Assembly (NCBI GenBank): GCA_963737905.1 | Contig: CAVTUQ010000009.1 | Coordinates: 160,001 to 224,000 of the forward strand | Direction of reading: 5' to 3' | Origin: an uncultured delta proteobacterium | Lineage (GTDB): Bacteria > Desulfobacterota > Binatia > UBA9968 | Length of the DNA stretch: 64,000 bases | Shown: positions 30,808 to 58,728 of the stretch, one piece after another | Numbering within the stretch: the first letter of the stretch is position 1 | Layout: each line of letters begins with the position of its first letter | The notes under the pieces: generated by a model | Databases searched by the model: none | What the model saw: the letters and a program-made list of their open reading frames with translations, nothing else | What the model was told of the DNA's origin: nothing | Position numbers and translations under genes: made by a program

Positions 30808-31878
30808 TCATTTCAGACCAAAGAGGTCCCGGTACAGTTTCGCGTAACGATCGAAGTTAGCGCCCAAAAGTTCCGGGCTCATCGGGACGGTCTTGGGGTC
30901 CCCGAGTTTTGGATACCTTTGTTGTTGACCTCTCCGCGCGGGGCTTCGCCCGATTATCATGCCGACAAAATGCTGTGCTTCACTTGAAAGCGCCCAATCG
31001 ATGAACAGGGCAGCCGCGTACGGATGCTGAGCACGCTTGGCCAACATGAACATCTTCGGAACCGAGACGACTGGATCAAGAAAAAGCAGCCCAACCGGTG
31101 CGCCGTTTTCCATCAGCATCATGAGTCGATGAGAATAGAGCCATGGCGCCGCGGCAATCTCTCCTGCTGCCAAGAGTTGTGCCTGAAGCGTATGACCGCT
31201 GCGGAATTCGATTTGTTGATTGGCAAGCCTTTTGAAATATTGCAGCGCGCGCTCTTCGCCCCAGGCGTCGAAAAACACCCGAAAAATGTCGCCGTCGTCT
31301 TTATCCAGAGAGAGTCTGCCCTTCCAGGTTGGCAGCAATAGGTCGTCGTAGTTCTTGGGCAATTCGGATTCCTTGACGTAGCGTTTGTTGTAACCCAACG
31401 CCACCGGCAAGTAGGAGTATCCGTGCTACAATCGTTTCGGATCGACGAACTCCGCGCGAATCGCCGCGCTTTCCGGCGAATTGTACGGGTCAATCAGGCC
31501 GCGATCGATTAAGTTAGCGGCGGTAAGCGATGCTGACTCGATGACGTCTGCCGAATGCTTGCCGGCGCTCGCTTCGATGGCGACCTTGTTGTAAATCCCA
31601 CCTTCATTAGAGCGATAGTGGTCAATAGAAATGTACGGATGCGATTTACGAAACAACTCGAGGAAGGGCCGAGAGGCATCGACTCCGAGTGTTCCATAGA
31701 AAACCAATTTGCCTTCCTTCTTGGCACCCTCCGCAAGTTTGGACCTGTGCTCGGGGTTCTTAAAGTCCAGCGCCTTCAAAGCTTCAGCCGAAGGCTGGGC
31801 GGACGCCAAATCGAAACGAACCGCGACGATCAGAACAATCGCTGCCAGGACAGCGGTTTGTCGCTTGAGTGCAGCCAT
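30808..31878 (-). CDS. Extracellular solute-binding protein (Fe(III)-type) (frameshift near 31420)
   Basis: Signal peptide, GAKKEGKLVFYG, LGYN, HPYAAALFIDWALS. Confidence 0.8.
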
Positions 31879-34132: not shown

Positions 34133-35144
34133 CTAGCGCGAATCGGTGATATGGCTTTCTCTGGCTGGTTGTGAAACACCCGTGTTAGGCAATCTGGAGA
34201 CGGTTTCTGCCATGGGGAATAAGTTATTGAGACTCGGACGCGATGAGATATATCCCTGCTGCTCGGCATACTCGACGAATTTCTCAAGCACGTTCGCATT
34301 AGGGCTCAAGCCGTGGTTCCACGGGTTCTCGCCGAATCTTCTCTCCTGTTCTTCGCGCAAAAGCACCGCCGTAGGAAATGAAAATCGTTTCGGGTACTGA
34401 TATCGCTCCATGCATAACCTGTCAGCTTCATCGAACGCGGCGAGAAGCCGTCCGGCGAGCCACGGATGTTTATTCAAAAGCGATTCTTTTAAAACCAGGG
34501 TGTGCGTAATCGGAAAAATCTGCGTTCTATCGAAGTAGCGTTGTACCGAAGTTGGGCAATCCTGGAACAGTCTCCGTATCCGAGGATCGCCGGCCCGGTA
34601 TGCACGCGGCACATTTGCCGCAATCACCGCATCCAGCTCCCCGTCGAGAAGCAGTTGTTCCACATCTTTCTCTTGAACAGTTTTCTTTACGTTCTGAGGC
34701 GCCGCGTATCCGGCACCTTTCGGTCGATGAGGTAACCCAATGAACGTCGGAGGGAGAAACGCCGTGATGTTCTTGGAGGATTCCCCGCGCCCACAAGCCG
34801 ACGGTAAACCGGTATTGCTCCATCCCCACCTTTTTGCCTTTCAAGTCTTGAGGCGCGTCGATTCCGGAATTTGGCGAGCAGAAGATATACGGCTGTATGA
34901 ACATGCGGAGCGGAAAAACCGGTAGGGCCACCAAGGGTTCGCCGCGGCAGCGCGCCATGACATACCAAGACAAGGACATTTCTACGACGTCGAACATTTC
35001 ATACACGGGCCTATAGCACGCTGCTCCCTGGGTTGGCGGAGGAAATACTTTTAGGGAAACGCCGTCAACGCGCGCCTCGCCCGTGGCCAGCGCGTTGGTT
35101 CTGTCATAATCCGCAACCATCAAACTGAGCTCAAGATCACCCAT
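34133..35144 (-). CDS. 4,5-dihydroxyphthalate decarboxylase-like protein (frameshift near 34700)
   Basis: DYDRT.AL, FDVVEMSLS.Y, ALPVFPLRMF, DLKGKKVG..Y, GELDAVI, IFPITHTLV. Confidence 0.8.
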
Positions 35145-37358: not shown

Positions 37359-38320
37359 CTATTTAAGTCCCAGCTCTCTCATTGCTTCCCGCACGGGACT
37401 CAGCTCGGCCACCGTAGTCGAGGAAACTTCGCCGGTTATTTTAAGATCATTTTTTGCTTGATCGATGACCACCCGAAGGCCATCCTCGGGGATAAAGCCA
37501 TTGGGGCTGAAGCCCTTCCACGTCGAATCAAAAGAGGCAGTGGCACTTGATCGATCGGTTTTGGCCCAGGCCGCTAAAATTTGAATGGCATCATCGCGAT
37601 GTTTGATCATGAATTGATTAGCCCTGATCAACGTCTTGATGACCTTCTTAACCTCCTCGGGTTTTTCCGCCAGTTTTTTTGTGTTAGTTCCCAATCCCAT
37701 GTATGGAAATCGCACAATCTCATTGGCTTTCGTCAGCACGGTGAAACCCATTTTTTTTCCTTCGGAATCGCTTGGCGGAGCAACCACCGCGCCGTCCACG
37801 ACACCCTGACTCATCGCAGCCAAACGTGCACCATCTGAGCCCAAGGCGATAAGTTTGATGTCCTGCTTTGGATCGAGGCCGAAGTGTTTGCTGATCAGCT
37901 GCGCGACGACGTCGGCGGAGCTGCCGAAGGAGCCGAATGCGATGGATCTCCCTTAAATTCCTTGAATGATTGAATACCCGGTCGCGCCAGAATCACATAA
38001 GTCGGGCTGTCGATGAATGTCGCCACGACTTTTACCGGCAACCCTCGCATTGCCGCTCTCACGACCGCACTAAAAACCATCGTGTAGTCGATGGAGCCGC
38101 TCGCCAGCGCCGAAATCGACACGCTTGCCGTAGTTTGAATGATTTCCGGGTCTAGGCCTTCGTCCCTGAAATATCCCTTTTTTGTTGCGACCCCGGCGCT
38201 CAGATAGGTTATGTTGTAGTTTGTTACGGCAATCCTAATTTTGTCGGCGGCTTCGACCGAGCTACCGCAAACGCAAACAAGCAAAAAAGCCGCCGATATT
38301 CTGTTGATGTGATTTCTCAT
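37359..38320 (-). CDS. NMT1/SsuA-like ABC substrate-binding protein (frameshift near 37945)
   Basis: KGYFRDEGLD, ALASGSIDY, GLDP..I, ARLAAMSQG.VDG. Confidence 0.8.
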
Positions 38321-47035: not shown

Positions 47036-48169
47036 CTAGAAGCCGATGATTCTTAATTGGAGCAAGCCGGAGAGATCGTTGTGGGAGTTGCCGGATGAAA
47101 TGAAATCGGGTTGTTGGTTGTAATTAACATTGAAAGATAGTGTATCGTCTTTTCCCAGAAAGTTCCCGATTTTCCAGTCCAGGGCTGTGGTGGTCCCAAA
47201 CGTCCTCACAATATTCAATCCGTCACCGCCATAGCTTCGGGCGAATGACGTCGTGCCGGTGAGCTTCAACACATCGCGGAAGGGAGTGTAGGCAAAGATG
47301 AGCTCCGTCCTCGGAGTTTCGATTCTAGCTCCAGTATTTGCATTCCGCTCTTCTCTGATGCTGAGATTAGGGTTCACAGAAAGGAAATCGAATGGGCGAT
47401 AAGAACCTGTGAGAGTATTCGTAAAAGCCGTCGTTGCTTGGTTTAGCGCTGCCCCTGCATCTATCCATTCGTAACTCGACGCAAACTTTGCTCCCCATTG
47501 TGACCGATTGATGTTGAGCGACGCAGTGGCGTTCTTGGTCACGCGCAGGCTGTTTACATCCAGGAGTTTCTCCCAGGACTCGCCGATGGATCCACGAAGA
47601 CTGAAGGGGCCTAGATTGTGCTCTCCCCAAAGTTGGCCTTCATCGCGGGTTTGGTCGGTTGCAGCCCCTGCGATGGAGACAAAGCCACGATCTGTGGATT
47701 TGTAGTCGGCGCCGTAGCCTAAACTTCCCCAACGGCTCTTAAGTCCAAGCCGGAGCATTTTTGGCCAATCCTGACAAGCACACTGGCCCGCCAAAGAATT
47801 GAGGGAGCTGTAGGACAGCTCGCCTTCGCCAGTTAAGCCGCTGCCGGCAAAGGAAGAGGTCGCCAGTAGATTTAAGTATTTCCGGGAATTGCCATCCTGC
47901 AAACCGCCGTTCGGCTCGCTGGGCGCATCGCGCTTTTCGAGGTACGAAGCCTTCAGTTCCAGGAGTTTTGGGCCGAAGCTTAGGACAAGCGTTTTTCCGG
48001 CAGGAACAGCGGGTCTGGGCATCCCGTCAATCTGAGAGAAAGCTGTCGGATCAGGTGCCAAGATAGGAGATGACGCCGGCTCAGGGAAAATCTGAGAAAG
48101 CTCAGGCTTTGCAGTGGTGCAAGCAGAAGAAAGGAAAATTAAGGCGGCTAGAAGATAAAATTTGCGCAC
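47036..48169 (-). CDS. Hypothetical outer-membrane beta-barrel-like lipoprotein
   Basis: Lipobox-like LSSAC, Pro-rich linker, alternating amphipathic strands, terminal LQLRIIGF beta-signal-like end. Confidence 0.6.
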   Translation of the reverse strand: MRKFYLLAALIFLSSACTTAKPELSQIFPEPASSPILAPDPTAFSQIDGMPRPAVPAGKTLVLSFGPKLLELKASYLEKRDAPSEPNGGLQDGNSRKYLNLLATSSFAGSGLTGEGELSYSSLNSLAGQCACQDWPKMLRLGLKSRWGSLGYGADYKSTDRGFVSIAGAATDQTRDEGQLWGEHNLGPFSLRGSIGESWEKLLDVNSLRVTKNATASLNINRSQWGAKFASSYEWIDAGAALNQATTAFTNTLTGSYRPFDFLSVNPNLSIREERNANTGARIETPRTELIFAYTPFRDVLKLTGTTSFARSYGGDGLNIVRTFGTTTALDWKIGNFLGKDDTLSFNVNYNQQPDFISSGNSHNDLSGLLQLRIIGF

Positions 48170-48250: not shown

Positions 48251-49282
48251 CTAGAGGGAAAGCCTCTCCCAATCCGCGTTGGATGCATCGCGTGCAATCG
48301 AAAGCCCCCCATCGGACCCGGCAAAAATGGGATCCTTGACGACGGTCACTCGACCCCCTCCCAGGTCCGAGCAGGCTTTTTCGAGAGCAGTCGGGAGACC
48401 GGAAATGAGCGAGCTTCCGCCCGCTACAATAATATTGTTGCGCACCTGCTCCTGGTACTCGGGCTCCACCCTGGAGAGAAGATCGATCATGGTCTCCGAG
48501 ATGGGGGCCAGAATAGATTCACAGGCGGCGCGCATTTCATCTGTGATATCGAATTCTGTCGCCTTTCCCTTGGCTGGCACCGTGACCGTCACTCGACCCT
48601 TCGGATCACCGACGAAACTCCATTTTTCTTTCCAGTCACGGATCATATGAACCGAAACCTGGGCCTCAGGATGGTGCTCCTGCATCAGTTTTAAGAGGCG
48701 TTCGTCAATGGAATCACCGGCGTTTGGCAGCGTGCGCTGATCTTCCTCGGTAGGATAGCGGCCTTGCATGACACAAAAATCCGCCGTCCCGGCGCCAATA
48801 TCGATGATCATCGCGTGGAGCAATGCTTCCAAGCCGTAGGCCACCGCGAAAGGTTCAGACACCAACATCACGCTATCGGCAATGCCGTCCATGGCGCTCC
48901 GGAGTCTTTGTCTGCTGACTCGAAACGCCTCGGCCGGAACGCCGACAACCGCGCGTACCTTGCCTCGGTTCTTGCTTTTTTGCTTGAGGCCTATCAAGGA
49001 AATCAAATGGCGCAGTAATTCCTGGACCGCCTCCTCGTCCTTCGCCGATCCTTCTTTGATGACTCCGCGTTCGAGCGGCCGGCGGAGATCCAGCATCGAA
49101 CGATTGTCTAGGGCTTCGCGACCGACGAGGACGGTTTTCTTCACTAGTTTGCGGGCTACCATATCCAGGGGCCAGCCCACATAGCTGTCAACCACGTGAC
49201 GTTCGCCATTTGAAGCGGAGATGGAGCTTCGAGAGGTACCCAGATCTATTCCGATGCAGAGAGTTTCGTTGGTTTCTTCCAT
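48251..49282 (-). CDS. mamK: MamK-like bacterial actin (MreB/MamK family ATPase)
   Basis: GIDLGTS, VGWPLD, AVVGVPA, SEPFAVAYGL, DIGAGT..C...G..P..EDQ.TL..AG..IDE, KE.WSFVG, PEYQ..V.NNI..AGG, VKDP.FAG match recalled MamK-specific motifs rather than MreB. Confidence 0.85.
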   Translation of the reverse strand: MEETNETLCIGIDLGTSRSSISASNGERHVVDSYVGWPLDMVARKLVKKTVLVGREALDNRSMLDLRRPLERGVIKEGSAKDEEAVQELLRHLISLIGLKQKSKNRGKVRAVVGVPAEAFRVSRQRLRSAMDGIADSVMLVSEPFAVAYGLEALLHAMIIDIGAGTADFCVMQGRYPTEEDQRTLPNAGDSIDERLLKLMQEHHPEAQVSVHMIRDWKEKWSFVGDPKGRVTVTVPAKGKATEFDITDEMRAACESILAPISETMIDLLSRVEPEYQEQVRNNIIVAGGSSLISGLPTALEKACSDLGGGRVTVVKDPIFAGSDGGLSIARDASNADWERLSL

Positions 49283-50284
49283 AAATCAGCTACCTTTTTT
49301 TCCGAACCATTGAGGTTCTTCGCATAAGAAACAATGCCTCTCAGCAGCGCCTGCGCGATCTTTTCCCGATAATCGGCGTTTGTCAACAATTTAACGTCAT
49401 CTTCGTTCGACAGACAGGAAACCTCGGCCAAGACGGCGGGCATCTGAGTGCCGACGAGGACCGCGAAGGGGGCCATCTTCACGCCGCGATTTTCCAGTTC
49501 GGGGTTGATTTGGCTGAGTGACTGATAGAGTTCGGTGTTGATGGTCTTGGCAAGCGTATAGGATTCATCGCGCCGGGTGTCGAGGTAGATCTTTTCCAGC
49601 AGCCGCCGATAGTCAGCCAAAGAGTAACCGGAATCCCGGTTTTCAATGCCGGCGAGCTTGATCACGGCCGGATCGTTAGAGGCTCCGACATAGTACGTTT
49701 CCAGTGGCCGGATTTCACGGGGTTCCATCCAGTTTACATGGATCGAAACAAAAAGATCGGCGTTGTTGGCGTTGGCGAAAGCCACTCTTTTTTCCAGCGG
49801 TAAGGTTTCATCGGTGTGTCGCGTCATCAGCACTTCGAAAGGGACATCTTCCATGAGTCCGCGCAATCGGAGTGCGATGTCCAACGTGATGTCCTTCTCC
49901 GACACTCCTGATTCCGAGATAGCGCCATGTTGTTTACCGCCATGTCCCGGGTCGATTACGATTCTCTTGACCGAGAGAGGAAGGACCGACCGGTTTATTC
50001 GGGAAGGGGCCGGAAGAGGCGTCGCCGCTTTGAGCAGATGGCTCCCGGCCGCTATGTCCGTGGCGGCCGGGTTGGATGACGAATTCTTTGCCCCTCGAAA
50101 CCACCAGCGCCGGTACCGCCAGATAAACGATACTTGCGATCAGCAAAAACCCCCACAGCCAGACAGGAAATATGGCTTTGGGCTGCTCCTGGGGTTTGGT
50201 TGCGCTAACAACCCGCGTCCCTCCAACATTGCTCTGGATTGCCTCACGAAGGATGCGAAGTTTAGTCTGTTCTACGCTTTCCAT
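49246..50284 (-). CDS. Membrane-anchored N-acetylmuramoyl-L-alanine amidase (Amidase_3) (frameshift near 50095)
   Basis: N-terminal helix + TM (WLWGFLLIASIVYLAV) + Pro/Ser linker, then IVIDPGHGG, SEK, SIHVN, AEVSCLSN Zn/catalytic motifs. Confidence 0.85.
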
Positions 50285-51099: not shown

Positions 51100-51918
51100 A
51101 TGGCTACACAGCGCATCAGTTACGTTGACCCGGCGACGATTACCGATCCGGCAATGCTCGAAGAGCTCGATCGATGTCGCCGCGAGGGGACACCGCGCCC
51201 GGAAAGTTCCGCAATCCGTGCCCACGTGCCCGCTTGTTTTTGGTCGTTCGCGAATTCTTGGCGTGATATTTTCAAGAACGGCATTTGCGATCATAGCATC
51301 AAAGAACTCTGCCGCGTTTATGTTTCAAGATCGATCAACTGCGAGTACTGCGGCAACCAACGTTCGCTCAAAGCGGCCAAGGCGGGCCTCGAAGAGGCGC
51401 AGTACGACGACCTGTTGAACTTTGAGCAATCGAAGCGCTTTGACGAACGGCAAAAAGCCGCGCTGGCATACGCCGAAGCCATTACCTGGCATCTGGATAC
51501 CGATGACGCGTTCTGGCAGCGACTATATCAACATTTTTCCGAGCCGGAGCTGGTTGAGATCGGCTGTTTTGTCGCATTGACCATGGGCCAGCAGAGCTGG
51601 CTGCGCCTGCTAAACATCGAGCACCATCAAGTGCTGGCAGGGACCTCGGGAGGAATGGCGCCGGGATTCGAAACTTTCGAGGCTCTGGACAAATCGAAGG
51701 CATCCGCCGATTACTGGGCGAAAAAGGCATCCCTCGTTAACTGCGAAGAGTTAGAACGCCGAATTAAACGCATGGATATATCTCTCGTTGAGGTCTTTCA
51801 GAACCAAGAGTTGACCTCAGTATGCTCTTACACTAAAGTAAAGTCCGGCCTTTTTCTCCGTCCATGTCGATCCACGTCGCGCTGCACCACGTCACCCAAT
51901 ACTATTACGATCGCCTGA
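51100..51918 (+). CDS. Carboxymuconolactone decarboxylase/AhpD-like protein (real stop probably near 51740)
   Basis: KELCRVYVS..INCEYC, ERQKAALAYAE, HFSEPELVEI; AAGGAG RBS. Confidence 0.8.
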   Translation: MATQRISYVDPATITDPAMLEELDRCRREGTPRPESSAIRAHVPACFWSFANSWRDIFKNGICDHSIKELCRVYVSRSINCEYCGNQRSLKAAKAGLEEAQYDDLLNFEQSKRFDERQKAALAYAEAITWHLDTDDAFWQRLYQHFSEPELVEIGCFVALTMGQQSWLRLLNIEHHQVLAGTSGGMAPGFETFEALDKSKASADYWAKKASLVNCEELERRIKRMDISLVEVFQNQELTSVCSYTKVKSGLFLRPCRSTSRCTTSPNTITIA

Positions 51919-54900
51919 TTAACCTCGGCCCCCAGGTGGTCCGTCTGCGACCCGCGCCGCATTGTCGCACGCGGATTTTGAGCTATTCACTGCGGGTTGA
52001 GCCGGCCAAACACTTTATCAACTGGCAACAAGATCCCCAGGCGAATTATCTCGCTCGCCTGGTATTTCCCGAATCCACCCGCAAATTTCACGTCGAAGTC
52101 GATCTCGTCGCCGAGATGGCGGTCATCAACCCGTTCGATTTTTTCTTGGAACCCCACGCCGAGTATTATCCCTTCGAGTACGAGCCTTGGCAGCGGGTGG
52201 AGCTCGCGCCGTACTTCAGGCAGGAGCCGTTGACGCCGCTCTTCGATTGTTACTTGGCCGCGGTTTCGCGTGAGAAGATGCGCAGCGTCCCGTTTCTAGT
52301 CGAGCTCAACCGCCAGCTCGCCGGCGACATCGAATACCTGATCCGCATGGAGCCCGGCGTGCAGACGCCGGAAGAGACACTCACCAAACGGTCGGGCTCT
52401 TGCCGCGACTCGGGCTGGCTGCTCGTCCAACTGCTGCGCCGTCTTGGGCTCGCTGCGCGATTTGTCTCAGGCTATCTGATCCAACTCACCGCTGACGTCA
52501 AATCCCTTGACGGCCCGTCGGGGCCGGAAAAGGATTTCACTGATTTGCACGCCTGGGCCGAGGTGTATCTGCCGGGAGCCGGCTGGATCGGTCTTGACCC
52601 GACCTCCGGGTTATTCGCGGGCGAAGGTCATCTCCCGCTCTCCTGCACGCCTGAGCCGGCATCCGCCGCTCCGGTGACCGGCGCCATCGACGAGTGCGAG
52701 GTGGAGTTCTCTCACGAAATGACGGTCACGCGCATCTGGGAAGCGCCGCGGGTCACCAAGCCCTACACCGAAGAAGAGTGGCGGGCCATTGAGGAGCTGG
52801 GTCACGATGTCGATGCCGACCTTGCGGCTCGCGACGTGCGCCTGACCATGGGCGGGGAGCCGACGTTTGTTTCCATCGACGACCCCGACGGCGAAGAATG
52901 GAACACCGCGGCGCTGGGAACTGGCAAGCGCAGACTCGGTGCTGATCTCTATCAGCGTTTGCGCAAGCGCTACGGTGCGCAGGGCCTCGTCCATTTTGGC
53001 CAAGGCAAGTGGTATCCGGGCGAGCAACTGCCACGCTGGTCGCTCAACTGCTTTTGGCGTGCCGATGGCGAACCCATCTGGCGCGCCGAATCGCTGATCG
53101 CGGACGAGTCCCGGCCGGGCGACGCGACGGAAGCTACTGCGGCGGAGTTTCTGCGCGGCGTCGCCGAAAGGTTGGGACTCGACGCGCAGCACATATTCCC
53201 GGCCTATGAGGATGCTTATTATTTTCTATGGCGCGAGCGGCGATTGCCGGCCAACGTCGATCCTTTCGATTCCCGGCTCGACGATCCACTCGAACGCGAG
53301 CGCTTGGTGCGCGTATTCTCTCAAGGTCTCAAGCAGGTCGTCGGCTATGCCCTCCCGGTAACGCGGGACCCGGCGAGCGGACGCTGGCGCAGCGGATCTT
53401 GGTTTCTACGTAGCGAGCACTGTTATTTGGTCCCCGGCGACTCGCCTATGGGTTATCGTTTGCCGCTCGACTCTCTGCCGTGGGCTAAAGCCAGCGACTA
53501 TCCATACGTCTACCCGCCGGACCCCACGGTGCCGCTTCCGCCCCTTGTGAGCCATGCCGAATTCCGATTTCAGGTCGCCGCAAGGCGGTCCGCCGATCAG
53601 GCAACTTCAAGCGAGAGCCGTGCCGAGAGCGCCGGCTCGAAGCGGGACGGCTCCTTCGACCTGGCGCCGAGCCTCTTCGAGAGCGCGTCGTGGATCAACC
53701 GTTCGGCCATATGCGCGGAGCCAAGAAACGGAATTCTCTATGTTTTTATGCCGCCGATGGAATCGCTGGAGGATTACCTGGGACTCGTCGCCGCGATGGA
53801 AGCCACGGCGGAGGAGATGCGCCAACCCATTCTCTTTGAAGGCTACGAACCGCCGCGCGACCCGCGGCTAATTAATTTCCGGATCACTCCGGACCCCGGC
53901 GTGATCGAAGTGAACATTCATCCGTCGCGGCGCTGGGACGAGTTGGTGGAGCATACGACTTTCCTGTACGAGGCCGCGCGGGAGTCGCGGTTGGCAACCG
54001 AGAAATTTATGATCGACGGCCGCCACACCGGCACCGGTGGCGGCAATCACTTTGCGCTCGGCGGCGCGACGCCCAACGACTCGCCCTGGCTGCGCCGTCC
54101 GGATCTCTTGCGGAGCCTGGTGAGCTACTGGCACAACCACCCTTCGCTCTCGTATATGTTTTCCGGGCTATTCATCGGCCCCACTTCGCAAGCCCCGCGT
54201 ATCGACGAGGCACGCAACGACTCGGTGAACGAAATCGAAGTCGCGTTCCGCGAGATGAAGCGCCAGACGCAGTCGGACACTGACCCCTGTCCACCTTGGC
54301 TCCTCGATCGACTGATGCGCCATCTGCTTATCGACGTCACCGGTAATACGCACCGTTCCGAGTTTTGCGTCGATAAGCTTTATTCGCCGGACAGTGCCAC
54401 CGGCCGCCTCGGGCTCCTTGAAATGCGTGCTTTCGAGATGCCGCCCCACGCGCGCATGAGCCTGACCCAGCAACTGCTGCTGCGCACTCTCGTCGCGCGT
54501 TTCTGGCGAGCGCCTTATGCGCCGGCGCGGCTGGCGCGCTGGGGCACCGAACTGCACGATCGCTTCCTACTGCCGCACTTTGTCTGGCTTGACTTCAATG
54601 ACGTGATCACTGAATTGAACGAGGCCGGCTACCGGTTCGAGGCGCGGTGGTTTACGCCACACTTCGAGTTTCGTTTTCCGAAATACGGCGACCTCTCGAC
54701 TCGCGGCATCGATCTCGAGTTGCGCGGCGCCCTGGAGCCCTGGCACGTGCTGGGCGAGGAAGGCGCCGTCGGCGGCACGGCGCGTTATGTCGACTCGTCC
54801 CTCGAGCGGCTACAACTTAAGGTGACCGGGCTGCCGCCGGATCGCTACACGATCACTTGCAATAGGGTACCGCTACCCTTACAGACTACGGGAAGCGTGG

Positions 54901-55214
54901 GGGAGTTTGTGGCGGGAGTGCGCTACCGCGCGTGGCAGCCGTCATCCGCTCTTCACCCGACCATCGCTGTGCACGCGCCGCTCACGTTTGACATTGTGGA
55001 CCGTTGGATGCACCGGAGCCTCGGCGGCTGCCAGTATCACGTTATGCACCCCGGTGGGCGCAGCTATGCGACGTTTCCGGTGAACGCCTTCGAGGCCGAA
55101 AGCCGCCGCTTGGCGCGCTTCTTCCGCATCGGCCACACGCCGGGGCAGATGGAGGTCGGCGAGCCCCGCATCGATCCCGAGTTTCCGTTTACCCTCGATC
55201 TGCGCAAGATCTAG
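51864..55214 (+). CDS. Transglutaminase + DUF2126 (putative amidoligase) fusion
   Basis: Bact_transglu_N (LRPAPHCRT), GSCRDS / LHAWAEVY / GLDPT catalytic core, LTMGGEPTFVS, PDPGVIEVN, GTGGGNH, LLEMRAFEMPP. Confidence 0.92.
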   Translation: MSIHVALHHVTQYYYDRLINLGPQVVRLRPAPHCRTRILSYSLRVEPAKHFINWQQDPQANYLARLVFPESTRKFHVEVDLVAEMAVINPFDFFLEPHAEYYPFEYEPWQRVELAPYFRQEPLTPLFDCYLAAVSREKMRSVPFLVELNRQLAGDIEYLIRMEPGVQTPEETLTKRSGSCRDSGWLLVQLLRRLGLAARFVSGYLIQLTADVKSLDGPSGPEKDFTDLHAWAEVYLPGAGWIGLDPTSGLFAGEGHLPLSCTPEPASAAPVTGAIDECEVEFSHEMTVTRIWEAPRVTKPYTEEEWRAIEELGHDVDADLAARDVRLTMGGEPTFVSIDDPDGEEWNTAALGTGKRRLGADLYQRLRKRYGAQGLVHFGQGKWYPGEQLPRWSLNCFWRADGEPIWRAESLIADESRPGDATEATAAEFLRGVAERLGLDAQHIFPAYEDAYYFLWRERRLPANVDPFDSRLDDPLERERLVRVFSQGLKQVVGYALPVTRDPASGRWRSGSWFLRSEHCYLVPGDSPMGYRLPLDSLPWAKASDYPYVYPPDPTVPLPPLVSHAEFRFQVAARRSADQATSSESRAESAGSKRDGSFDLAPSLFESASWINRSAICAEPRNGILYVFMPPMESLEDYLGLVAAMEATAEEMRQPILFEGYEPPRDPRLINFRITPDPGVIEVNIHPSRRWDELVEHTTFLYEAARESRLATEKFMIDGRHTGTGGGNHFALGGATPNDSPWLRRPDLLRSLVSYWHNHPSLSYMFSGLFIGPTSQAPRIDEARNDSVNEIEVAFREMKRQTQSDTDPCPPWLLDRLMRHLLIDVTGNTHRSEFCVDKLYSPDSATGRLGLLEMRAFEMPPHARMSLTQQLLLRTLVARFWRAPYAPARLARWGTELHDRFLLPHFVWLDFNDVITELNEAGYRFEARWFTPHFEFRFPKYGDLSTRGIDLELRGALEPWHVLGEEGAVGGTARYVDSSLERLQLKVTGLPPDRYTITCNRVPLPLQTTGSVGEFVAGVRYRAWQPSSALHPTIAVHAPLTFDIVDRWMHRSLGGCQYHVMHPGGRSYATFPVNAFEAESRRLARFFRIGHTPGQMEVGEPRIDPEFPFTLDLRKI

Positions 55215-55225
55215 GCGAAAGCACT

Positions 55226-55246
55226 ATGAGCCAGCAATCACAGTGA
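55226..55246 (+). other. Intergenic micro-ORF MSQQSQ
   Basis: ATG AGC CAG CAA TCA CAG TGA between operon genes; weak RBS; translation unproven. Confidence 0.2.
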
Positions 55247-55290
55247 ACCGAGGAGTTAGCGTCGTTGAACGTTGAATAACCTTGAATTTT

Positions 55291-57825
55291 ATGCCACTGT
55301 CATCCTTCGCGAGTTACCTACCCCAGCCGGAACGTTACGACGAAGTCTTCGGCATGGATGGTCGCCCGCGCCCTCACTGGAAGCGGCTCGCGGAGGCGGC
55401 GGCGCGGGCAAGCCGCGCCGAGTTATCGCGTCGGGCAGGGACCATCCGTCACGCTGTGGATCAGGATGGTGTAACGTACAACATCTATGCCGATCCGAAG
55501 GGGGCCGACCGGCCTTGGGAAGTCGATCTGCTGCCATTGATCATCAGCACCGAGGAGTGGCGCTTTTTGGCGAAGGCGGTACAGCAGCGCGCTCGCCTCC
55601 TGAACGCCGTCCTTGCCGATCTCTATGGAGCGGGCCGCTTGCTTGCCGAAGGTTTGCTTCCACCTGCCATCATCCAAGGTCACCACAATTATCTCTGGCC
55701 TTGCCGCGGGCTGGAGCCACCCGGCGGTACTTTTCTCAATCTTTACGGTTGCGATCTGGCCCGCTCTCCCGACGGCCGCTGGTGGGTCATCGCCGACCGC
55801 ACGCAGGGTCCCTCCGGCGCGGGATACGCGGTGCAAAACCGGCTCATCGTTACGCCTATGTATGGACGGCTGTTCCGATCGCTCGGCGTGCAGCGGCTCG
55901 CCGGTTTTTTCCGCACCTTGCAACAGCGGTTGGCGGCTCTCGCCCCCACCGACGGCGAGGCGCCGCTCATCGCGCTCCTGACACCCGGGCCGTACAACGA
56001 AACATACTTCGAGCAGGTCTTCCTTGCTCGCTATCTGGGCTTTGCCCTCGTGGAAGGGTCGGACCTCACCATACGTGATAATAGAGTCTATTTGAAAACC
56101 CTCGAAGGTCTAAAGCGGGTGCACGTTCTGCTCCGCCGTCTCGACGACGAATACTGCGATCCATTGGCTCTGCGTACCGACTCTGCGCTCGGGGTGCCAG
56201 GGTTGCTTGGTGCCGTGCGTGCCGGAAATGTGGCCATCGCCAATGCTCTTGGCTCGGGGGTGCTGGAGACGCCCGCCTTGCCGGGTTTTCTCCCGGCAAT
56301 TTGCCAAACGCTGCTCGGCGAGCCCCTTGAGCTACCTTCCATTGCGACCTGGTGGTGTGGGGAAGCGCCGGCGCTCGAGCATGCGATCAAGCATCTCCCC
56401 GAGCTGGTCATCAAGCCGGCCTTTCCCTCCATGAAGCTTGAACCGACTTTTGGACATGTACTCGACGGCGCTGGCCGGGAAGCGATGGTTGAGAGAATAC
56501 GCGCGACGCCGCACGCCTTTGTGGCCCAGGAGTGGGTGCGCCTTTCCCAGGCGCCTACTTGGTCCAGCGAGCGCGAGCGATTCGAGCCGCGGGTGGTCGG
56601 ATTGCGGCTCTACGCGGTAGCCACCGCCACCGGCTACGACGTCATGCCCGGTGGACTCGCACGGGTCTCGCCCGAGACCAGCACCGAGGTTATCAGTATG
56701 CAGCGTGGCGGATCGAGCAAAGACACTTGGGTGCTGGACGGTGCCGCGACGGTGTATCAATCGCTACTGCAGCCCCGTCTCACCGCCCGAGACATCGTAC
56801 ACAGCGGTTTTTACTCTCCTTCGCGCGCGGTGGAGAATCTTTTCTGGATGGGACGTTACGCCGAGCGCGTCGAATCGGTTGGCCGTCTGCTGCGCGCCAC
56901 GGCTCTGCGGCTGGTCGAAAGCGACCCGTCAAACTCGGCAGGTGTCGAGGTGCTGACCGCTTTGTGCGAAAGCGCGCGGCTTGGCGAAATGTCGCCCGCG
57001 GCCACGACGCCATCTTCGACGAGGAAAAAAGCAAAAAAAACAGTAAACGGCGGCGACGATTGGTTGCTGGCGGCCGTCGGGGATCCGCGAGTCGCAAACG
57101 GTGTTCCGGCTAACACGGCGCGCCTGCTCTACTGCGCGACCCAACTTCGGGATCGAATTTCGCTCGACAACTGGCATACCGTTCAACGTCTTGCTCATGC
57201 GCACGAGCCCGCGCCAAAGGATATCGAAGCCGCCTTGACGATTATCGATCAAGTATTGCCTGCCTGCACCGCCCTTGCGGGCTACGCATTCGATGATATG
57301 ACGCGAGACGATGCCTGGCGATTCCTGGCGACGGGACGCCGCTTGGAGCGTATGGCCTTCCTGGCATCGGTGGTCGCCCAGGTCTTGGCGCGGCCGGAGG
57401 AGGAACGCGAGGCGGCGCTCGGCGCGCTCCTCGAAATAGGTAACATCATCATCACCTATCGCGCGCGCTACCAGCGGCAGCCTGAACTCCTTCCGGTCGT
57501 CGATCTTCTGGTCAAAGACGAGTCGAATCCTCACGCGGTCTGCTTCCAGCTCGCGCTGCTCAGCCGGGAAGTTCACGAGTTCGAAGCTCGACTGGGTTTC
57601 CGCCCGATCAACAATCCACTTCCATTGCTCCACTCCCTTCGGCTGTTCGACTTGGCCGAGTTCGATAACCATCGTCTGTCCCATGGCGAGCCGGAGCGAT
57701 TCGGCGAGTCCCTCGCCACGATGCTCAGGGCGTGCGAGCGCCTTGCCCACGGGCTTTCCGACGAGTTGTCGCAGCGTTTCTTCGTGCACGCGGGAGAGCG
57801 ACCACAAGCGAGTGTGGCGGCATGA
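55291..57825 (+). CDS. Circularly permuted type 2 ATP-grasp + alpha-E domain protein
   Basis: YDE..G..RPHW, DRTQGPSGAGY, LLTPGPYNETYFE, RRLDD..CDPL, MPGGLARV, GG.SKDTWV, ENLFWMGRY.ER, GRRLER. Confidence 0.92.
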   Translation: MPLSSFASYLPQPERYDEVFGMDGRPRPHWKRLAEAAARASRAELSRRAGTIRHAVDQDGVTYNIYADPKGADRPWEVDLLPLIISTEEWRFLAKAVQQRARLLNAVLADLYGAGRLLAEGLLPPAIIQGHHNYLWPCRGLEPPGGTFLNLYGCDLARSPDGRWWVIADRTQGPSGAGYAVQNRLIVTPMYGRLFRSLGVQRLAGFFRTLQQRLAALAPTDGEAPLIALLTPGPYNETYFEQVFLARYLGFALVEGSDLTIRDNRVYLKTLEGLKRVHVLLRRLDDEYCDPLALRTDSALGVPGLLGAVRAGNVAIANALGSGVLETPALPGFLPAICQTLLGEPLELPSIATWWCGEAPALEHAIKHLPELVIKPAFPSMKLEPTFGHVLDGAGREAMVERIRATPHAFVAQEWVRLSQAPTWSSERERFEPRVVGLRLYAVATATGYDVMPGGLARVSPETSTEVISMQRGGSSKDTWVLDGAATVYQSLLQPRLTARDIVHSGFYSPSRAVENLFWMGRYAERVESVGRLLRATALRLVESDPSNSAGVEVLTALCESARLGEMSPAATTPSSTRKKAKKTVNGGDDWLLAAVGDPRVANGVPANTARLLYCATQLRDRISLDNWHTVQRLAHAHEPAPKDIEAALTIIDQVLPACTALAGYAFDDMTRDDAWRFLATGRRLERMAFLASVVAQVLARPEEEREAALGALLEIGNIIITYRARYQRQPELLPVVDLLVKDESNPHAVCFQLALLSREVHEFEARLGFRPINNPLPLLHSLRLFDLAEFDNHRLSHGEPERFGESLATMLRACERLAHGLSDELSQRFFVHAGERPQASVAA

Positions 57826-58728
57826 GCGCGAGCAGTGTGCGTTGTTACCGGGTCGATGCATCGGACCACCTATCGGTATTCAGAGCCGGTGACCCTTTCT
57901 CATCAGCAGCTCCACCTGACCCCGCGCCTGCTCGCTTACCAGCGCACCCGTGTGCACGAGGTGGCCATCACGCCGCCGCCGACCTATCGCCGGGAGCGCA
58001 CAGACGCTTTCGGCAATCCGGTGACCGACATGGCCATTGAGGCGCCCCATACCACGCTTGAGATTGTTGGCCGTTCGGTCATCGAAGTTGGCGGACGAGA
58101 ACCTCCCGAGGCCGATAAAACAGTGGCCTGGGAAACCGTCCGCGAAGCGCTTGCTTATCGCGCCGGCTGGCGCCCGGACCCTGAGGCGCTCGAAGCCACA
58201 CGGTTTCTCTTCGAATCGCCCCATGCGCGCGTAAAAAGGGACCTACGAGCCTACGCGAGCGATTGCTTCAGGCCTGGACGTTCGGTGCTGGAGGCGGCCC
58301 AGGGGCTCATGGACAAAATCCATGGTGAGTTCAAGTTTGATCCTGAGGCAACGACCACCACAACCCCGGTCATGACGTTCTTCGAGCAAAAGCGCGGCGT
58401 GTGTCAGGACTTCACCCACTTTATGATTTCTTGCTTGCGTTCCACCGGGCTCCCCGCTCGTTACCTGAGCGGCTATCTCGTGCCGCGATCAACGTCGGGT
58501 AAACAACGGCCGGTGGGGGCGGAGGCCTCCCATGCGTGGGTGGCCGTGTTCGTTCCCGGCAGCGGCTGGGTCGAGCTCGATCCGACCAATAACGTGCTGC
58601 CGTCCTTGGGGCATATTACGTTGGGATGGGGCCGCGATTTCTCCGATGTGACGCCGTTACGCGGTGTCATCAATGGCGGCGGAGAGCAGAGGCTTACGGT
58701 AAAAGTGACCATCGAGTTGGATGAGTAA
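57822..58728 (+). CDS. Transglutaminase-family protein (frameshift near 57855)
   Basis: ATGA overlap with the previous gene; H.T.Y.Y, DAFGN, GVCQDF, ARYLSGY, SHAWV, DPTN, GRDFSDV.P. Confidence 0.9.

What the first reader, a model, noticed from the sequence alone, without database searches (positions are those of the whole stretch)
48251..49282. MamK-type actin with no magnetosome genes in 64 kb
Residue-level matches to MamK (recalled from Magnetospirillum and deltaproteobacterial sequences): GIDLGTSRS, YVG(W/Y)P.D, SEPF.V.YGL, G..P..EDQ.TL..AG, KE..SFVG, PEYQ..V..NI and a terminal W. No mam, mms, mad or feo gene lies nearby. This suggests either an orphan MamK-like clade or a cryptic magnetotactic lineage.
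Basis: partly seen in the sequence, partly recalled or inferred. Interest (0 to 1): 0.72.

Follow-up and report, generated by a model that had tools for sequence, protein, structure and literature searches.

The report
MamK-like actin paired with membrane amidase
This soil bacterium's MamK-like actin gene is not part of a magnetosome system but belongs to a widespread two-gene module with a membrane-anchored cell-wall amidase whose conserved cytoplasmic tail is predicted to dock onto the actin.

Summary
The ORF is real (48251-49282, minus strand, 343 aa) and MamK-like: full-length 250-bit match to solved MamK, versus BeeR 146 and MreB about 53. NCBIfam MamK scores 373.8, under its 400 cutoff.

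Cryptic magnetotaxis is not supported. Six curated Mam models plus CDF_MamB, and proteins from a verified magnetosome cluster (L050), find only generic hits in the 87%-complete genome.

Context explains the gene better. An Amidase_3 gene lies directly upstream in 38 of 41 related genome loci across several phyla, in 9 of 80 metagenome loci, and in 14 of 14 family genomes carrying the actin gene. The amidases share a conserved N-terminal peptide, one TM helix and invariant catalytic residues. The peptide is predicted to dock in the actin groove: 0.73 versus best control 0.02.

Amidase-linked and magnetosome-linked proteins form separate clades (SH-aLRT 99 and 98), but nesting is not rejected (AU p = 0.25).

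Best reading: a cytoplasmic filament that positions or controls a periplasmic cell-wall amidase. Searches found no published description.

The parts
48251..49282 (-). MamK-like actin-family ATPase, 343 aa
   Evidence: ORF. Pfam MreB_Mbl 85 bits. NCBIfam MamK 373.8 bits vs cutoff 400. 250 bits, full length, to solved MamK. The nucleotide-binding motifs (D13-G15-T16, E143-P144, D161-G163-G165-T166, G288-G289) are invariant in 30 of 30 orthologues.
49246..49970 (-). Catalytic Amidase_3 domain of the partner N-acetylmuramoyl-L-alanine amidase. Its 3' end overlaps the actin gene start by 37 nt.
   Evidence: Pfam Amidase_3 135 bits. H64, E79, H132 and E237 (numbering of the window's extended frame) are invariant in 46 of 46 partner amidases. 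No AMIN or LysM domain, and below the AmiA/B/C/CwlD cutoffs, in intact orthologues.
50084..50084 (-). One extra base that splits the amidase gene into two frames in this assembly
   Evidence: One extra base relative to the intact orthologues L004 and L003. Contigs of all 3 DNA runs covering the site lack it (X1 2.8/2.8, X2 10.4/10.4, X5 8.51/8.51 depth). Most likely a MAG consensus error or a rare variant.
50102..50176 (-). Single transmembrane helix of the amidase (about residues 37-61 from the ATG at 50284)
   Evidence: Hydrophobic stretch IFPVWLWGFLLIASIVYLAVPALVV in the translation. Orthologues have a Kyte-Doolittle maximum of 1.2-2.6, mostly at residues 38-60 of the listed ORFs and further in where the ORF call extends upstream.
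50225..50266 (-). Conserved cytoplasmic tail motif of the amidase (TKLRILREAIQSNV, residues 7-20)
   Evidence: The motif is found in 37 of 38 partner amidases (the exception is a truncated fragment) and by regex in 7 of 9 divergent metagenome partners. N19 is invariant, and K8 and R13 are at least 90% conserved. These residues form the predicted interface. It is the only hit in the genome to a tail HMM (E 8e-11, next best 1.9).
50171..50284 (-). Cytoplasmic N-terminal tail of the amidase (residues 1-38). The likely true start codon is the ATG at 50284.
   Evidence: Orthologue starts align at this Met. Sequence read.
47036..48169 (-). Downstream 377-aa protein with a lipoprotein-like N-terminus. 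Probably co-transcribed, but not part of the conserved module.
   Evidence: No Pfam, NCBIfam, PHROG or PADLOC family. Homologues follow the actin gene only in the two closest loci, L003 and L004. Downstream genes vary elsewhere.

Best explanation
The gene encodes a polymerising, ATP-hydrolysing actin-family protein of the MamK-like superfamily that has nothing to do with magnetosomes in this organism. It is the second gene of a conserved two-gene module. The first gene encodes a bitopic inner-membrane N-acetylmuramoyl-L-alanine amidase: a short cytoplasmic N-terminal tail with a conserved amphipathic motif, one TM helix, a Pro/Ala/Ser-rich linker and a periplasmic Amidase_3 domain with intact catalytic residues. 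The tail motif docks as a helix into the hydrophobic groove between subdomains IA and IIA of the actin-like protein. This is the same 'hot spot' that ParR uses on ParM and arcadin-2 uses on crenactin. The cytoplasmic filament is thereby coupled across the membrane to a peptidoglycan-cleaving enzyme. The filament decides where, or whether, this extra amidase acts on the wall. Shown here: homology, gene linkage, co-occurrence, motif and catalytic-residue conservation, and absence of detectable mam genes. Predicted only: the tail-groove contact. Inferred: filament formation, topology, and spatial control of wall cleavage.
For: Homology to MamK is full length (250 bits) and the nucleotide-binding residues are invariant in 30 of 30 orthologues. 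The amidase lies directly upstream on the same strand in 38 of 41 genome loci spanning MAGs labelled Binatia, Deltaproteobacteria, Methylomirabilota, Acidobacteriota and Rhodothermales. It is also there in 9 of 80 metagenome loci, which are among the loci closest to the window protein (46-55% identity). In the host's GTDB family, 14 of 24 other genomes have the actin gene, and the same 14 have a strong amidase orthologue (48-100% identity) 5-32 nt away on the same contig and strand. The other 10, and 16 sister-family genomes, show at most a generic amidase at 33-39% identity. The tail motif is in 37 of 38 partners and in 7 of 9 divergent partners by regex, with one variant and one truncated. 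Catalytic H/E/H/E are invariant in 46 of 46. The partner has no AMIN or LysM targeting domain. Complex prediction: score 0.73 (0.74/0.72/0.73) vs best of 3 controls 0.02. That mark was reached by 58 of 80 solved complexes and 2 of 110 mismatched pairs. Runs agree in at least 75% of contacts and partner pLDDT is at least 64. The interface is tail residues 4, 7-16, 18-20 against actin residues 138-155, 174-176 and 329-341. The genome has its own canonical MreB-MreC (543.5 bits vs cutoff 365.75) and a second, generic amidase (C7:246496-247179), so the module is an addition rather than the housekeeping machinery. Precedents for groove-binding partner helices were read as passages in PMC5173319 and PMC3794156.
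Against: There is no experiment. The complex score is a model's confidence, obtained with my own alignments, so the calibration holds only roughly. Helix-in-groove complexes are solved (ParM:ParR 4A62, crenactin:arcadin-2 5LY3), so the pose may partly come from memory. The groove is also the longitudinal polymer contact (PMC5173319), so binding could cap, anchor or even depolymerise filaments rather than decorate them. The direction of control is therefore open. The module is dispensable: it was not found in 10 of 24 family-mates, five of them 97-100% complete, nor in 0 of 16 sister-family genomes. One clade member (L025, evidently the second copy in G154 at C807) has no amidase upstream. In this assembly the amidase is frameshifted, although 3 of 3 DNA runs show the intact form. 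Assigning residues 138-155/174-176/329-341 to the IA/IIA groove rests on my recalled mapping to actin residues, not on a computed superposition. The counts include two unpublished genomes (G162, G156).
Confidence: 0.6

Rival explanations
1. The tail is a regulator of the filament rather than its cargo. By occupying the IA/IIA groove it sequesters monomers or caps ends, as arcadin-2 does for crenactin. The membrane amidase, or the state of the wall it senses, would then control polymerisation of a filament whose real job lies elsewhere.
For: The predicted site is the groove that the next subunit's D-loop fills in actin-like filaments. Arcadin-2's C-terminal helix binds there and depolymerises crenactin (PMC5173319 passages). 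The interface residues are listed.
Against: No other conserved gene that could be the filament's 'real' client is found next to the pair. The tail HMM finds no other carrier in the genome. The catalytic residues of the amidase are invariant in 46 of 46, so the enzyme activity itself is under selection.
Confidence: 0.15
2. The two genes are co-transcribed and work in the same process (for example envelope remodelling) but do not touch. The conserved tail binds something else, such as a divisome or elongasome protein or membrane lipids.
For: Gene adjacency alone does not show binding. The complex tool's own description says 7 of 44 blindly picked neighbours passed its test, and its answer says the model supports binding but does not show it. 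Partner pLDDT is only 64-65.
Against: Score 0.73 vs best control 0.02, with the interface falling exactly on the conserved motif residues. Presence and absence of the two genes match perfectly across 40 relatives. The tail and the actin stay paired down to 46-55% actin identity.
Confidence: 0.15
3. Cryptic magnetotactic lineage, or a dispersed mamK: the gene is a true magnetosome MamK whose cluster lies elsewhere or in the unassembled 13% of the genome.
For: 41% identity to a magnetosome-cluster MamK (L050). The MamK model score is only 26 bits below cutoff. The AU test does not reject nesting within magnetosome MamKs (p 0.25). The genome is 87% complete.
Against: No Mam model is over cutoff. 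Best scores vs cutoffs: MamP 35/300, MamQ 80/250, MamO 84.5/800, MamE 174/800, MamA 92/200, CDF_MamB 55.5/350, MamI none. The same models score 94.7-693 on the real cluster L050. MamP could not be controlled this way because L050 has no MamP gene. L050's MamI, MamM, MamB and Mms6-like proteins give 0 tblastn hits. None of the 38 amidase-linked genome loci showed a conserved mam-type neighbour. Five other genomes of the phylum with 39-52% hits have no MamP (0 of 5).
Confidence: 0.03
4. A phage lysis or defence cassette: the amidase is an endolysin with a signal-anchor, and the actin-like protein is a phage partition or cytoskeletal protein.
For: The amidase hits endolysin PHROGs through its catalytic domain (up to 110 bits), and the actin-like protein weakly hits a phage partition family (33 bits). 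The distribution is patchy and the clade mixes phyla.
Against: Flanking genes are metabolic and differ between loci, and no phage gene was seen among conserved neighbours. The only PADLOC hit is 19.6 bits. Any Amidase_3 domain would be expected to hit endolysin families. The 75-93% identity across genera of one family suggests long vertical retention.
Confidence: 0.03

Closest known systems
MamK, the magnetosome actin of Magnetospirillum (PDB 5LJV, 5LJW, 5JYG)
   Same: Same length and fold family. Full-length alignment at 250 bits. 41% identity to a magnetosome-cluster MamK. The catalytic E143 and the phosphate and adenosine motifs are at the same positions.
   Different: No magnetosome genes in the window or the genome. 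Below NCBI's MamK cutoff. Separate clade in the ML tree. The partner is an amidase rather than magnetosome proteins.
MamK-like protein of the Paramagnetospirillum magneticum AMB-1 islet (UniProt P0DSO6; representative P0209)
   Same: A second-copy MamK homologue outside the main mamAB operon, named 'MamK-like'.
   Different: P0209 falls inside the magnetosome MamK clade next to the Magnetospirillum anchor and scores 472 bits on the MamK model. The window protein does neither.
BeeR, the three-stranded tubular actin of Verrucomicrobiota (PDB 8R2N; PMC11929497)
   Same: A MamK-related actin family in non-magnetotactic bacteria, presumed to have another function (passages).
   Different: BeeR is 25-30% identical to MamK and has a disordered N-terminal extension of 30-50 aa. 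The window protein is much closer to MamK (250 vs 146 bits), has no such extension (profile position 1 aligns to residue 8), scores 216.7 vs cutoff 530 on the BeeR model, and BeeR-like representatives group apart from it in both trees. The terms 'operon', 'amidase' and 'neighbo' occur 0 times in that paper's main text. Its SI PDF was not seen.
ParM-ParR (type II plasmid segregation)
   Same: A short terminal helix of the partner binds between subdomains IA and IIA of a bacterial actin (PDB 4A62; PMC3794156 and PMC5173319 passages). The same site and mode are predicted here. The actin gene and its adaptor sit in one operon.
   Different: The adaptor here is the N-terminal tail of a membrane enzyme, not the C-terminus of a DNA-binding protein. 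The presumed cargo is a cell-wall hydrolase, not a plasmid. The actin belongs to the MamK-like group, not the ParM group.
Crenactin-arcadin-2 (PDB 5LY3; PMC5173319)
   Same: [quoted passage not shown]
   Different: Arcadin-2 is a soluble archaeal depolymeriser. Here the helix belongs to a membrane-anchored bacterial amidase, and its effect on polymerisation is unknown.
MreBH-LytE and the Mbl/CwlO pathway in Bacillus subtilis
   Same: Works like: an actin homologue governs where a cell-wall hydrolase acts. The original MreBH-LytE report (Carballido-Lopez et al. 2006) is recalled and was not seen. For PMC3817527 I saw only the search listing and the start of its abstract.
   Different: LytE is a secreted endopeptidase with LysM domains, and the coupling is indirect. 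Here a single bitopic amidase would carry its own cytoplasmic actin-binding peptide. The actin is MamK-like, not MreB-like.
Cell-division amidases AmiA/AmiB/AmiC and sporulation amidase CwlD
   Same: The same Amidase_3 catalytic domain with conserved H/E/H/E.
   Different: Scores are far below every curated cutoff (CwlD 124.5/221.55, AmiA 109/400, AmiC 102/700, AmiB 93/532). There is no AMIN domain. Instead there is a cytoplasmic tail plus TM anchor. The genome has a separate generic amidase.

Membership tests
MamK (magnetosome actin) | Score at or above the curated cutoff of NCBIfam NF040964 (400 bits) | tested here: not met
   373.8 bits (374.1). The cutoff is not a clean divider, though. 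Scores of 66 full-length representatives run continuously from 212 to 508, and P0125, a close relative of the amidase-linked L126, scores 425.
MamK (magnetosome actin) | Encoded in, or together with, a magnetosome gene cluster (mamA/B/E/I/M/O/P/Q) | tested here: not met
   No Mam model is over cutoff in the 6.7 Mb, 87%-complete genome. Probes from the verified cluster L050 find only generic genes. The window annotation shows none.
MamK (magnetosome actin) | Phylogenetic placement inside the clade spanned by magnetosome-linked MamKs | tested here: inconclusive
   The ML tree places it in a separate 30-row clade (SH-aLRT 99) versus the 16-row MamK clade (SH-aLRT 98). An AU test does not reject uniting it with the 13-row MamK subclade (delta lnL 15, p 0.246). 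Only the quick search was run, with no bootstrap.
MamK (magnetosome actin) | Actin-fold ATPase with conserved phosphate-1, phosphate-2, connect-1 (Glu143) and adenosine motifs, and full-length similarity to solved MamK | tested here: met
   Alignment to 5LJW. Invariant D13/G15/T16, E143/P144, D161/G163/G165/T166 and G288/G289 in 30 orthologues. The motif names are taken from PMC10653835 passages.
MamK (magnetosome actin) | ATP-dependent polymerisation into filaments that align magnetosomes | not testable with these tools
   Needs protein biochemistry and imaging.
BeeR | NCBIfam NF053558 score of at least 530 bits, and a disordered N-terminal extension of 30-50 aa | tested here: not met
   216.7 bits. 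Profile position 1 aligns to residue 8, so there is no extension. The extension is described in PMC11929497.
MreB | Score over the TIGR00904 / NF010539 cutoffs, and linkage to mreC | tested here: not met
   62 and 73.5 bits vs cutoffs 365.75 and 293. The genome's real MreB (543.5 bits) sits next to MreC on contig C37. Public sources nevertheless label this clade 'rod shape-determining protein MreB'.
Actin plus groove-binding adaptor systems (ParMR-like; works-like, not membership) | A short terminal helix of the operon partner docks between subdomains IA and IIA | tested here: met
   Prediction only: score 0.73 vs best control 0.02, with the interface on the conserved motif. Assigning the contact residues to the IA/IIA groove is my inference from recalled actin numbering.
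AmiA/B/C-type division amidases (for the partner gene) | Amidase_3 domain with catalytic H/E/H/E | tested here: met
   Pfam 135-171 bits. Invariant in 46 of 46. Identifying these residues as zinc ligands and catalytic Glu is recalled from Amidase_3 literature.
AmiA/B/C-type division amidases (for the partner gene) | Periplasmic targeting domain (AMIN) and a score over the family cutoffs | tested here: not met
   Only Amidase_3 is found in 4 of 4 intact orthologues scanned. All curated amidase families are below cutoff.

The most novel reading that the evidence does not exclude
This is a ParMRC-like cytomotive machine that handles a cell-wall hydrolase instead of DNA. Filament ends are captured through the IA/IIA groove by the cytoplasmic tails of membrane amidases, so polymerisation positions, clusters or moves the peptidoglycan-cleaving enzyme along the envelope. 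This would be a direct, one-protein transmembrane link from a cytoskeletal filament to wall hydrolysis. The module is spread by transfer among soil phyla (labelled Binatia, Acidobacteriota, Methylomirabilota, Rhodothermales). Since nesting among magnetosome MamKs is not rejected, it may also bear on what MamK did before or after magnetosomes.
Probability: 0.3. Interest if true: 0.8.

Novelty: new variant of a known kind. Interest (0 to 1): 0.68.

Why it matters
Bacterial actins are known to organise wall synthesis (MreB), division (FtsA), plasmids (ParM) and magnetosomes (MamK). How wall hydrolases are kept in the right place is much less clear. A compact two-gene module would be a simple, testable model for cytoskeletal control of wall cleavage, because the hydrolase itself carries a conserved actin-docking peptide on the other side of the membrane. 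It would also give a function to a large clade that public annotation currently calls either 'MreB' or, for some members, 'MamK family' (P0125 passes NCBI's cutoff). There is a practical point too. A MamK-like hit, even above cutoff, should not be read as evidence of magnetotaxis in MAG surveys unless mam neighbours are present.

Tried and rejected

2. I guessed neighbours of the MamK accession to find Mam models. NF040962 turned out to be 'near_HgcAB' and NF040967 'cytc_ExtN', both irrelevant.

3. The MamI model rang in no control genome. It became meaningful only after L050's MamI scored 94.7 vs cutoff 80.

4. I tried genomes of the host's phylum with 39-52% hits as positive controls for magnetosome genes. 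0 of 5 had MamP, so they were unusable as controls and are probably further non-magnetosome MamK-like carriers.

5. I looked for a third conserved gene. None is general. A small TM plus coiled-coil ORF follows the actin gene in 11 loci only, and the 377-aa lipoprotein-like gene only in L003 and L004.

6. I looked for other carriers of the tail motif in the genome and found none.

7. Long fusion proteins with a C-terminal MamK-like domain have no Pfam domain in their N-terminal parts. This gives no extra support for a wall link.

8. Phage and defence libraries gave only generic or weak hits.

9. RNA evidence: one metatranscriptome run holds a 98%-alike contig over 48718-49279. The tool warns that this does not show transcription, so I do not count it.

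10. Literature searches: 'MamK' + 'N-acetylmuramoyl-L-alanine amidase' returned 0 papers. 'actin-like' + 'amidase' + 'gene neighborhood' + 'cytoskeleton' returned 0. 'MamK-like' + 'non-magnetotactic' returned 2, neither on this clade by title or abstract. In the MamK/Binatota/Binatia/Acidobacteriota/Methylomirabilota search, none of the 12 listed papers contains 'MamK'. Subscription journals are not covered.

11. A second AU test (clade plus the L112 group) and a 'careful' bootstrap tree were not run, for lack of time.

12. I did not fold the protein or run fold searches, because the sequence match to solved MamK made them unnecessary.
Full report
OBSERVATION. These are GIDLGTSRS 11-19, YVGWPLD 34-40, SEPFAVAYGL 142-151, GRYPTEEDQRTLPNAG 174-189, KEKWSFVG 218-225, PEYQEQVRNNI 274-284 and W338. 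All of them align with solved Magnetospirillum MamK over the whole length (query 6-341 vs chain 10-341, 250 bits, E 2e-73). In the same search BeeR (8R2N) scores 146 bits and MreB about 53. Pfam sees only the generic MreB_Mbl family (85 bits). NCBIfam ranks MamK first at 373.8 bits, under its 400-bit cutoff, followed by BeeR at 216.7 (cutoff 530) and MreB at 73.5 or less.

THE HOST AND ITS GENOME. The window is contig C9:160001-224000 of a 6.7 Mb, 46-contig assembly that is 87.5% complete with 6.7% contamination. The nearest public relatives of the gene are soil MAGs labelled Candidatus Binatia, Deltaproteobacteria or Thermodesulfobacteriota. Runs that hold the stretch are recorded as soil and freshwater metagenomes. 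Public sources call proteins of this clade 'rod shape-determining protein MreB'. That label is wrong, because the genome has a canonical MreB (543.5 bits vs cutoff 365.75) next to MreC on contig C37.

NO MAGNETOSOME SYSTEM. Pfam annotation of 53 ORFs across the window shows beta-oxidation-type enzymes, NMT1/TctC/SBP solute-binding proteins, aromatic ring-cleavage enzymes, transporters and an ATP-grasp/transglutaminase cluster. I searched the whole genome with curated Mam models. The best scores against their cutoffs were:
- MamP: 35 vs 300
- MamI: no hit
- MamQ: 80 vs 250
- MamO: 84.5 vs 800
- MamE: 174 vs 800
- MamA: 92 vs 200
- CDF_MamB: 55.5 vs 350

For every model that gave hits, many of the non-magnetotactic control genomes rang below cutoff as well.

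To control the models, I fetched loci with an alignment of bona fide MamKs. L050 proved to be a real magnetosome cluster: MamH 664, MamI 94.7, MamE 475, MamK 518, MamM 418, MamO 693, MamA 224.5, MamQ 233 and MamB 441 bits, plus FeoB and an Mms6/MamD-like gene. L050 has no MamP gene, so the MamP model has no positive control. I used L050's 15 proteins as tblastn probes against the genome. MamI, MamM, MamB and the Mms6-like protein gave 0 hits. MamK hit only the window gene (41% identity). MamE, MamO, MamA, MamQ and the ParA-like protein hit scattered generic genes, and the only neighbouring hits were MamE and MamO landing on the same HtrA-type genes. Three caveats remain: the genome is 13% incomplete, 'mad' genes were not probed, and the models may favour proteobacterial sequences (that last point is recalled, not tested).

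WHAT THE CONTEXT SHOWS. In 38 of 41 related loci from named genomes, an Amidase_3 gene lies directly upstream on the same strand, typically 0-7 nt away or overlapping. The three exceptions are as follows:
- L039 starts at the contig edge, so no upstream DNA is available.
- L043 is a 38%-identical Planctomycete gene outside the clade.
- L025 has another ORF upstream. Its contig number and coordinates match the second copy in genome G154, which also has a canonical pair.

All-against-all clustering of neighbours found no other widely shared gene apart from antisense shadow ORFs. The next most frequent clusters are lineage-specific, and downstream genes vary.

Among 80 metagenome loci retrieved with true MamKs, 9 have the amidase ending at the actin start. 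These are among the loci most similar to the window protein (46-55% identity). Two loci (L050, L112) carry several Mam genes, and L053 carries a MamE-like gene. The rest have neither context, including a large group at 33-38% identity.

In the host's own GTDB family, 14 of 24 other genomes carry the actin gene at 75-93% identity. Ten do not, five of them 97-100% complete, and none of 16 genomes in the two sister families does. The same 14 genomes carry a strong amidase orthologue 5-32 nt away on the same contig and strand. All the others have at most a generic amidase at 33-39% identity, and the host has one of those too. These counts include two unpublished genomes, G162 and G156. In a sample of the wider phylum, 9 of 151 genomes (the host included) hit at E <= 1e-60, the other 8 at only 39-52% identity. 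The module is therefore accessory, patchy and phylum-crossing, yet strongly conserved where it is present.

THE PARTNER. Intact orthologues are about 330-390 aa. Each has an N-terminal peptide of about 20 residues with the consensus TK(L/A)R(L/I)LR.AVQ.N(V/I), then a basic stretch, one TM helix, a Pro/Ala/Ser-rich linker and the Amidase_3 domain. The motif is in 37 of 38 partners, and the exception is a 64-aa fragment at a locus edge. In the divergent subclade the motif reads R..IL(R/K)GVYE(E/D)NL. There the regex matches 7 of 9, with one close variant and one truncated. Asn19 is invariant, and Lys8 and Arg13 are at least 90% conserved.

The four positions I take, from recalled Amidase_3 literature, to be the zinc ligands and catalytic Glu are invariant in 46 of 46. 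No AMIN, LysM or other targeting domain is present, and the protein is below the cutoffs of AmiA, AmiB, AmiC and CwlD. By inference, the topology puts the motif in the cytoplasm with the actin-like protein and the enzyme in the periplasm.

In this window the gene is split by one extra base at 50084, relative to the intact orthologues L004 and L003. Contigs from 3 of 3 DNA runs covering the site lack that base. Several other genes in the window also look split. I therefore read the frameshift as an assembly error or a rare variant.

PREDICTED CONTACT. I folded the actin-like protein (alignment of 30 rows) with tail residues 1-36 (alignment of 32 rows). The result was 0.73 (runs 0.74, 0.72, 0.73) against a best control of 0.02. 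That mark was reached by 58 of 80 solved complexes and 2 of 110 mismatched pairs. The runs agree in at least 75% of contacts, and partner pLDDT is at least 64. The calibration holds only roughly because I supplied my own alignments. The model supports binding but does not show it.

The peptide residues in contact (4, 7-16, 18-20) are the conserved motif. The actin residues in contact are 138-141, 145, 149, 152, 154-155, 174-176, 329, 332-333, 337 and 340-341. By my recalled mapping to actin, these line the hydrophobic groove between subdomains IA and IIA. That groove is a documented 'hot spot'. ParR's C-terminal 17 residues bind ParM there (4A62), and arcadin-2's C-terminal helix binds crenactin there and depolymerises it. 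In filaments the groove holds the next subunit's D-loop (passages of PMC5173319 and PMC3794156). Because such complexes are solved, part of the score may be memory of the binding mode. A profile of the tail finds no other carrier in the genome (E 8e-11 for the amidase, next best 1.9).

PHYLOGENY. The deep search found 1136 representatives at E <= 0.001 and 184 at E <= 1e-30. MamK-model scores of 66 full-length representatives run without a gap from 212 to 508 bits. P0125, which sits in the amidase-linked clade next to L126, scores 425, so the cutoff does not separate functions. Three anchors mark the magnetosome clade:
- P0147 matches solved MamK at 463 bits.
- P0209 is the AMB-1 'MamK-like protein' P0DSO6.
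- P0199 is 'Magnetosome protein MamK [uncultured bacterium]'.

A first tree (87 rows) and a second tree with context-verified rows (75 rows) were built with quick IQ-TREE under LG+C20 PMSF, with SH-aLRT support only. In the second tree, all 26 amidase-linked rows fall in one 30-row clade (support 99). The other four rows in that clade are L025, L039, P0121 and P0125. All 3 magnetosome-cluster rows and the 3 named proteins fall in a 16-row clade (support 98). BeeR-like proteins, a clade of long fusions, a Planctomycete group and the 33-38% group lie elsewhere, and the backbone is unresolved.

An AU test does not reject joining the amidase-linked clade with the 13-row MamK subclade to the exclusion of the L112 group (delta lnL 15, p 0.246). 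The clade is therefore distinct, but whether it is sister to or nested among magnetosome MamKs is open.

MECHANISM AND RIVALS. My best reading, at about 0.6, is a filament-forming MamK-like ATPase coupled through the membrane to an extra peptidoglycan amidase by the amidase's own cytoplasmic peptide, so that the filament controls where or whether the wall is cut.
- Shown: homology, linkage, co-occurrence, and conservation of the motif and catalytic residues.
- Predicted: the contact.
- Inferred: polymerisation, topology and the spatial role.

Because the site is the polymer contact, the tail may bind filament ends or monomers. A ParMRC-like end-capture and an arcadin-like regulatory role are both possible. 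The rivals are the tail acting as regulator of a filament with another job (0.15), co-regulation without contact (0.15), cryptic magnetotaxis (0.03), and a phage or defence cassette (0.03).

NOVELTY. The literature searches listed under Tried and rejected found no description of a MamK-like actin paired with an amidase. The BeeR paper shows that MamK-related families exist in non-magnetotactic bacteria, but its main text does not contain the terms 'operon', 'amidase' or 'neighbo'. Its SI PDF, and the supplements of PMC10653835, were not seen and could bear on this. I rate the finding a new variant of a known kind: the bacterial actin and the groove-binding adaptor are both known, and what is new is the combination with a bitopic cell-wall amidase in a distinct MamK-like clade.

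Noticed in passing
Representatives P0137-P0167 (e.g. P0139 1232 aa, P0141 1208 aa, P0167 1194 aa): A well-supported clade (SH-aLRT 99) of long proteins, 523-1232 aa, carries a MamK-like domain at the C-terminus. No Pfam domain is detectable in the N-terminal 190-900 residues. Their MamK-model scores (374-421 bits) straddle the cutoff.
   Followed up: partly
Representative P0199 (768 aa): An FtsZ-MamK fusion. TIGR00065 FtsZ scores 351.5 bits on residues 4-315 and MamK scores 446 bits on residues 434-765. The source names it 'Magnetosome protein MamK [uncultured bacterium]' (CAX83788).
   Followed up: no
Metagenome loci L063-L127 (e.g. L070, L073, L079, L086, L107): A large, tight group of MamK-like genes at 33-38% identity to the window protein has neither mam genes nor an amidase nearby. 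Some records carry marine-metagenome titles. Its function is unknown.
   Followed up: partly
window 30808-31878, 34133-35144, 37359-38320: Several solute-binding-protein genes (SBP, NMT1) appear split into adjacent ORFs that cover complementary parts of their Pfam profiles. This suggests indel errors in the assembly, like the one in the amidase gene.
   Followed up: partly
window 51864-58728: A four-gene cluster: DUF2126 amidoligase with transglutaminase domains (1116 aa), a circularly permuted ATP-grasp plus Alpha-E protein (847 aa), and a transglutaminase-like protein (297 aa). It lies in a stretch of 62% G+C, against about 54% elsewhere in the window.
   Followed up: no
window 47036-48169 (-): A 377-aa protein with a lipoprotein-like N-terminus and no family in Pfam, NCBIfam, PHROGs or PADLOC. 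It follows the actin gene only here and in the two closest relatives (L003, L004).
   Followed up: partly
L029-L032 and others, about 60-100 nt downstream of the actin gene: A small ORF (about 100-120 aa) with one TM helix and a coiled-coil-like region follows the pair in 11 loci, but not in the window. It could be a lineage-specific third component.
   Followed up: partly
Representative P0125; the search for homologous proteins list: Annotation hazard. P0125 sits in the amidase-linked clade and passes NCBI's MamK cutoff (425 bits), so it would be named 'MamK family'. Most other members are named 'rod shape-determining protein MreB'. Neither name fits the gene context.
   Followed up: yes
L050:4562-6984: In the verified magnetosome cluster, a ParA/MinD-like ATPase (254 aa) and a 554-aa protein with no NCBIfam family at E <= 1e-10 lie between mamE and mamK.
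   Followed up: no
window 1-28108: A long run of beta-oxidation-type and steroid-side-chain-type genes: acyl-CoA dehydrogenases, ChsH2-like OB/zinc-ribbon protein, thiolase-like protein, enoyl-CoA hydratases, family III CoA-transferase and an AMP-ligase. NMT1-type binding proteins and a CorA are interspersed.
   Followed up: no
G154 (C23:5862-6890 and C807:2343-3368): One family-mate genome has two copies of the actin-like gene, one with the amidase and one without (the latter is L025). This is either a paralogue or bin contamination (5%).
   Followed up: partly
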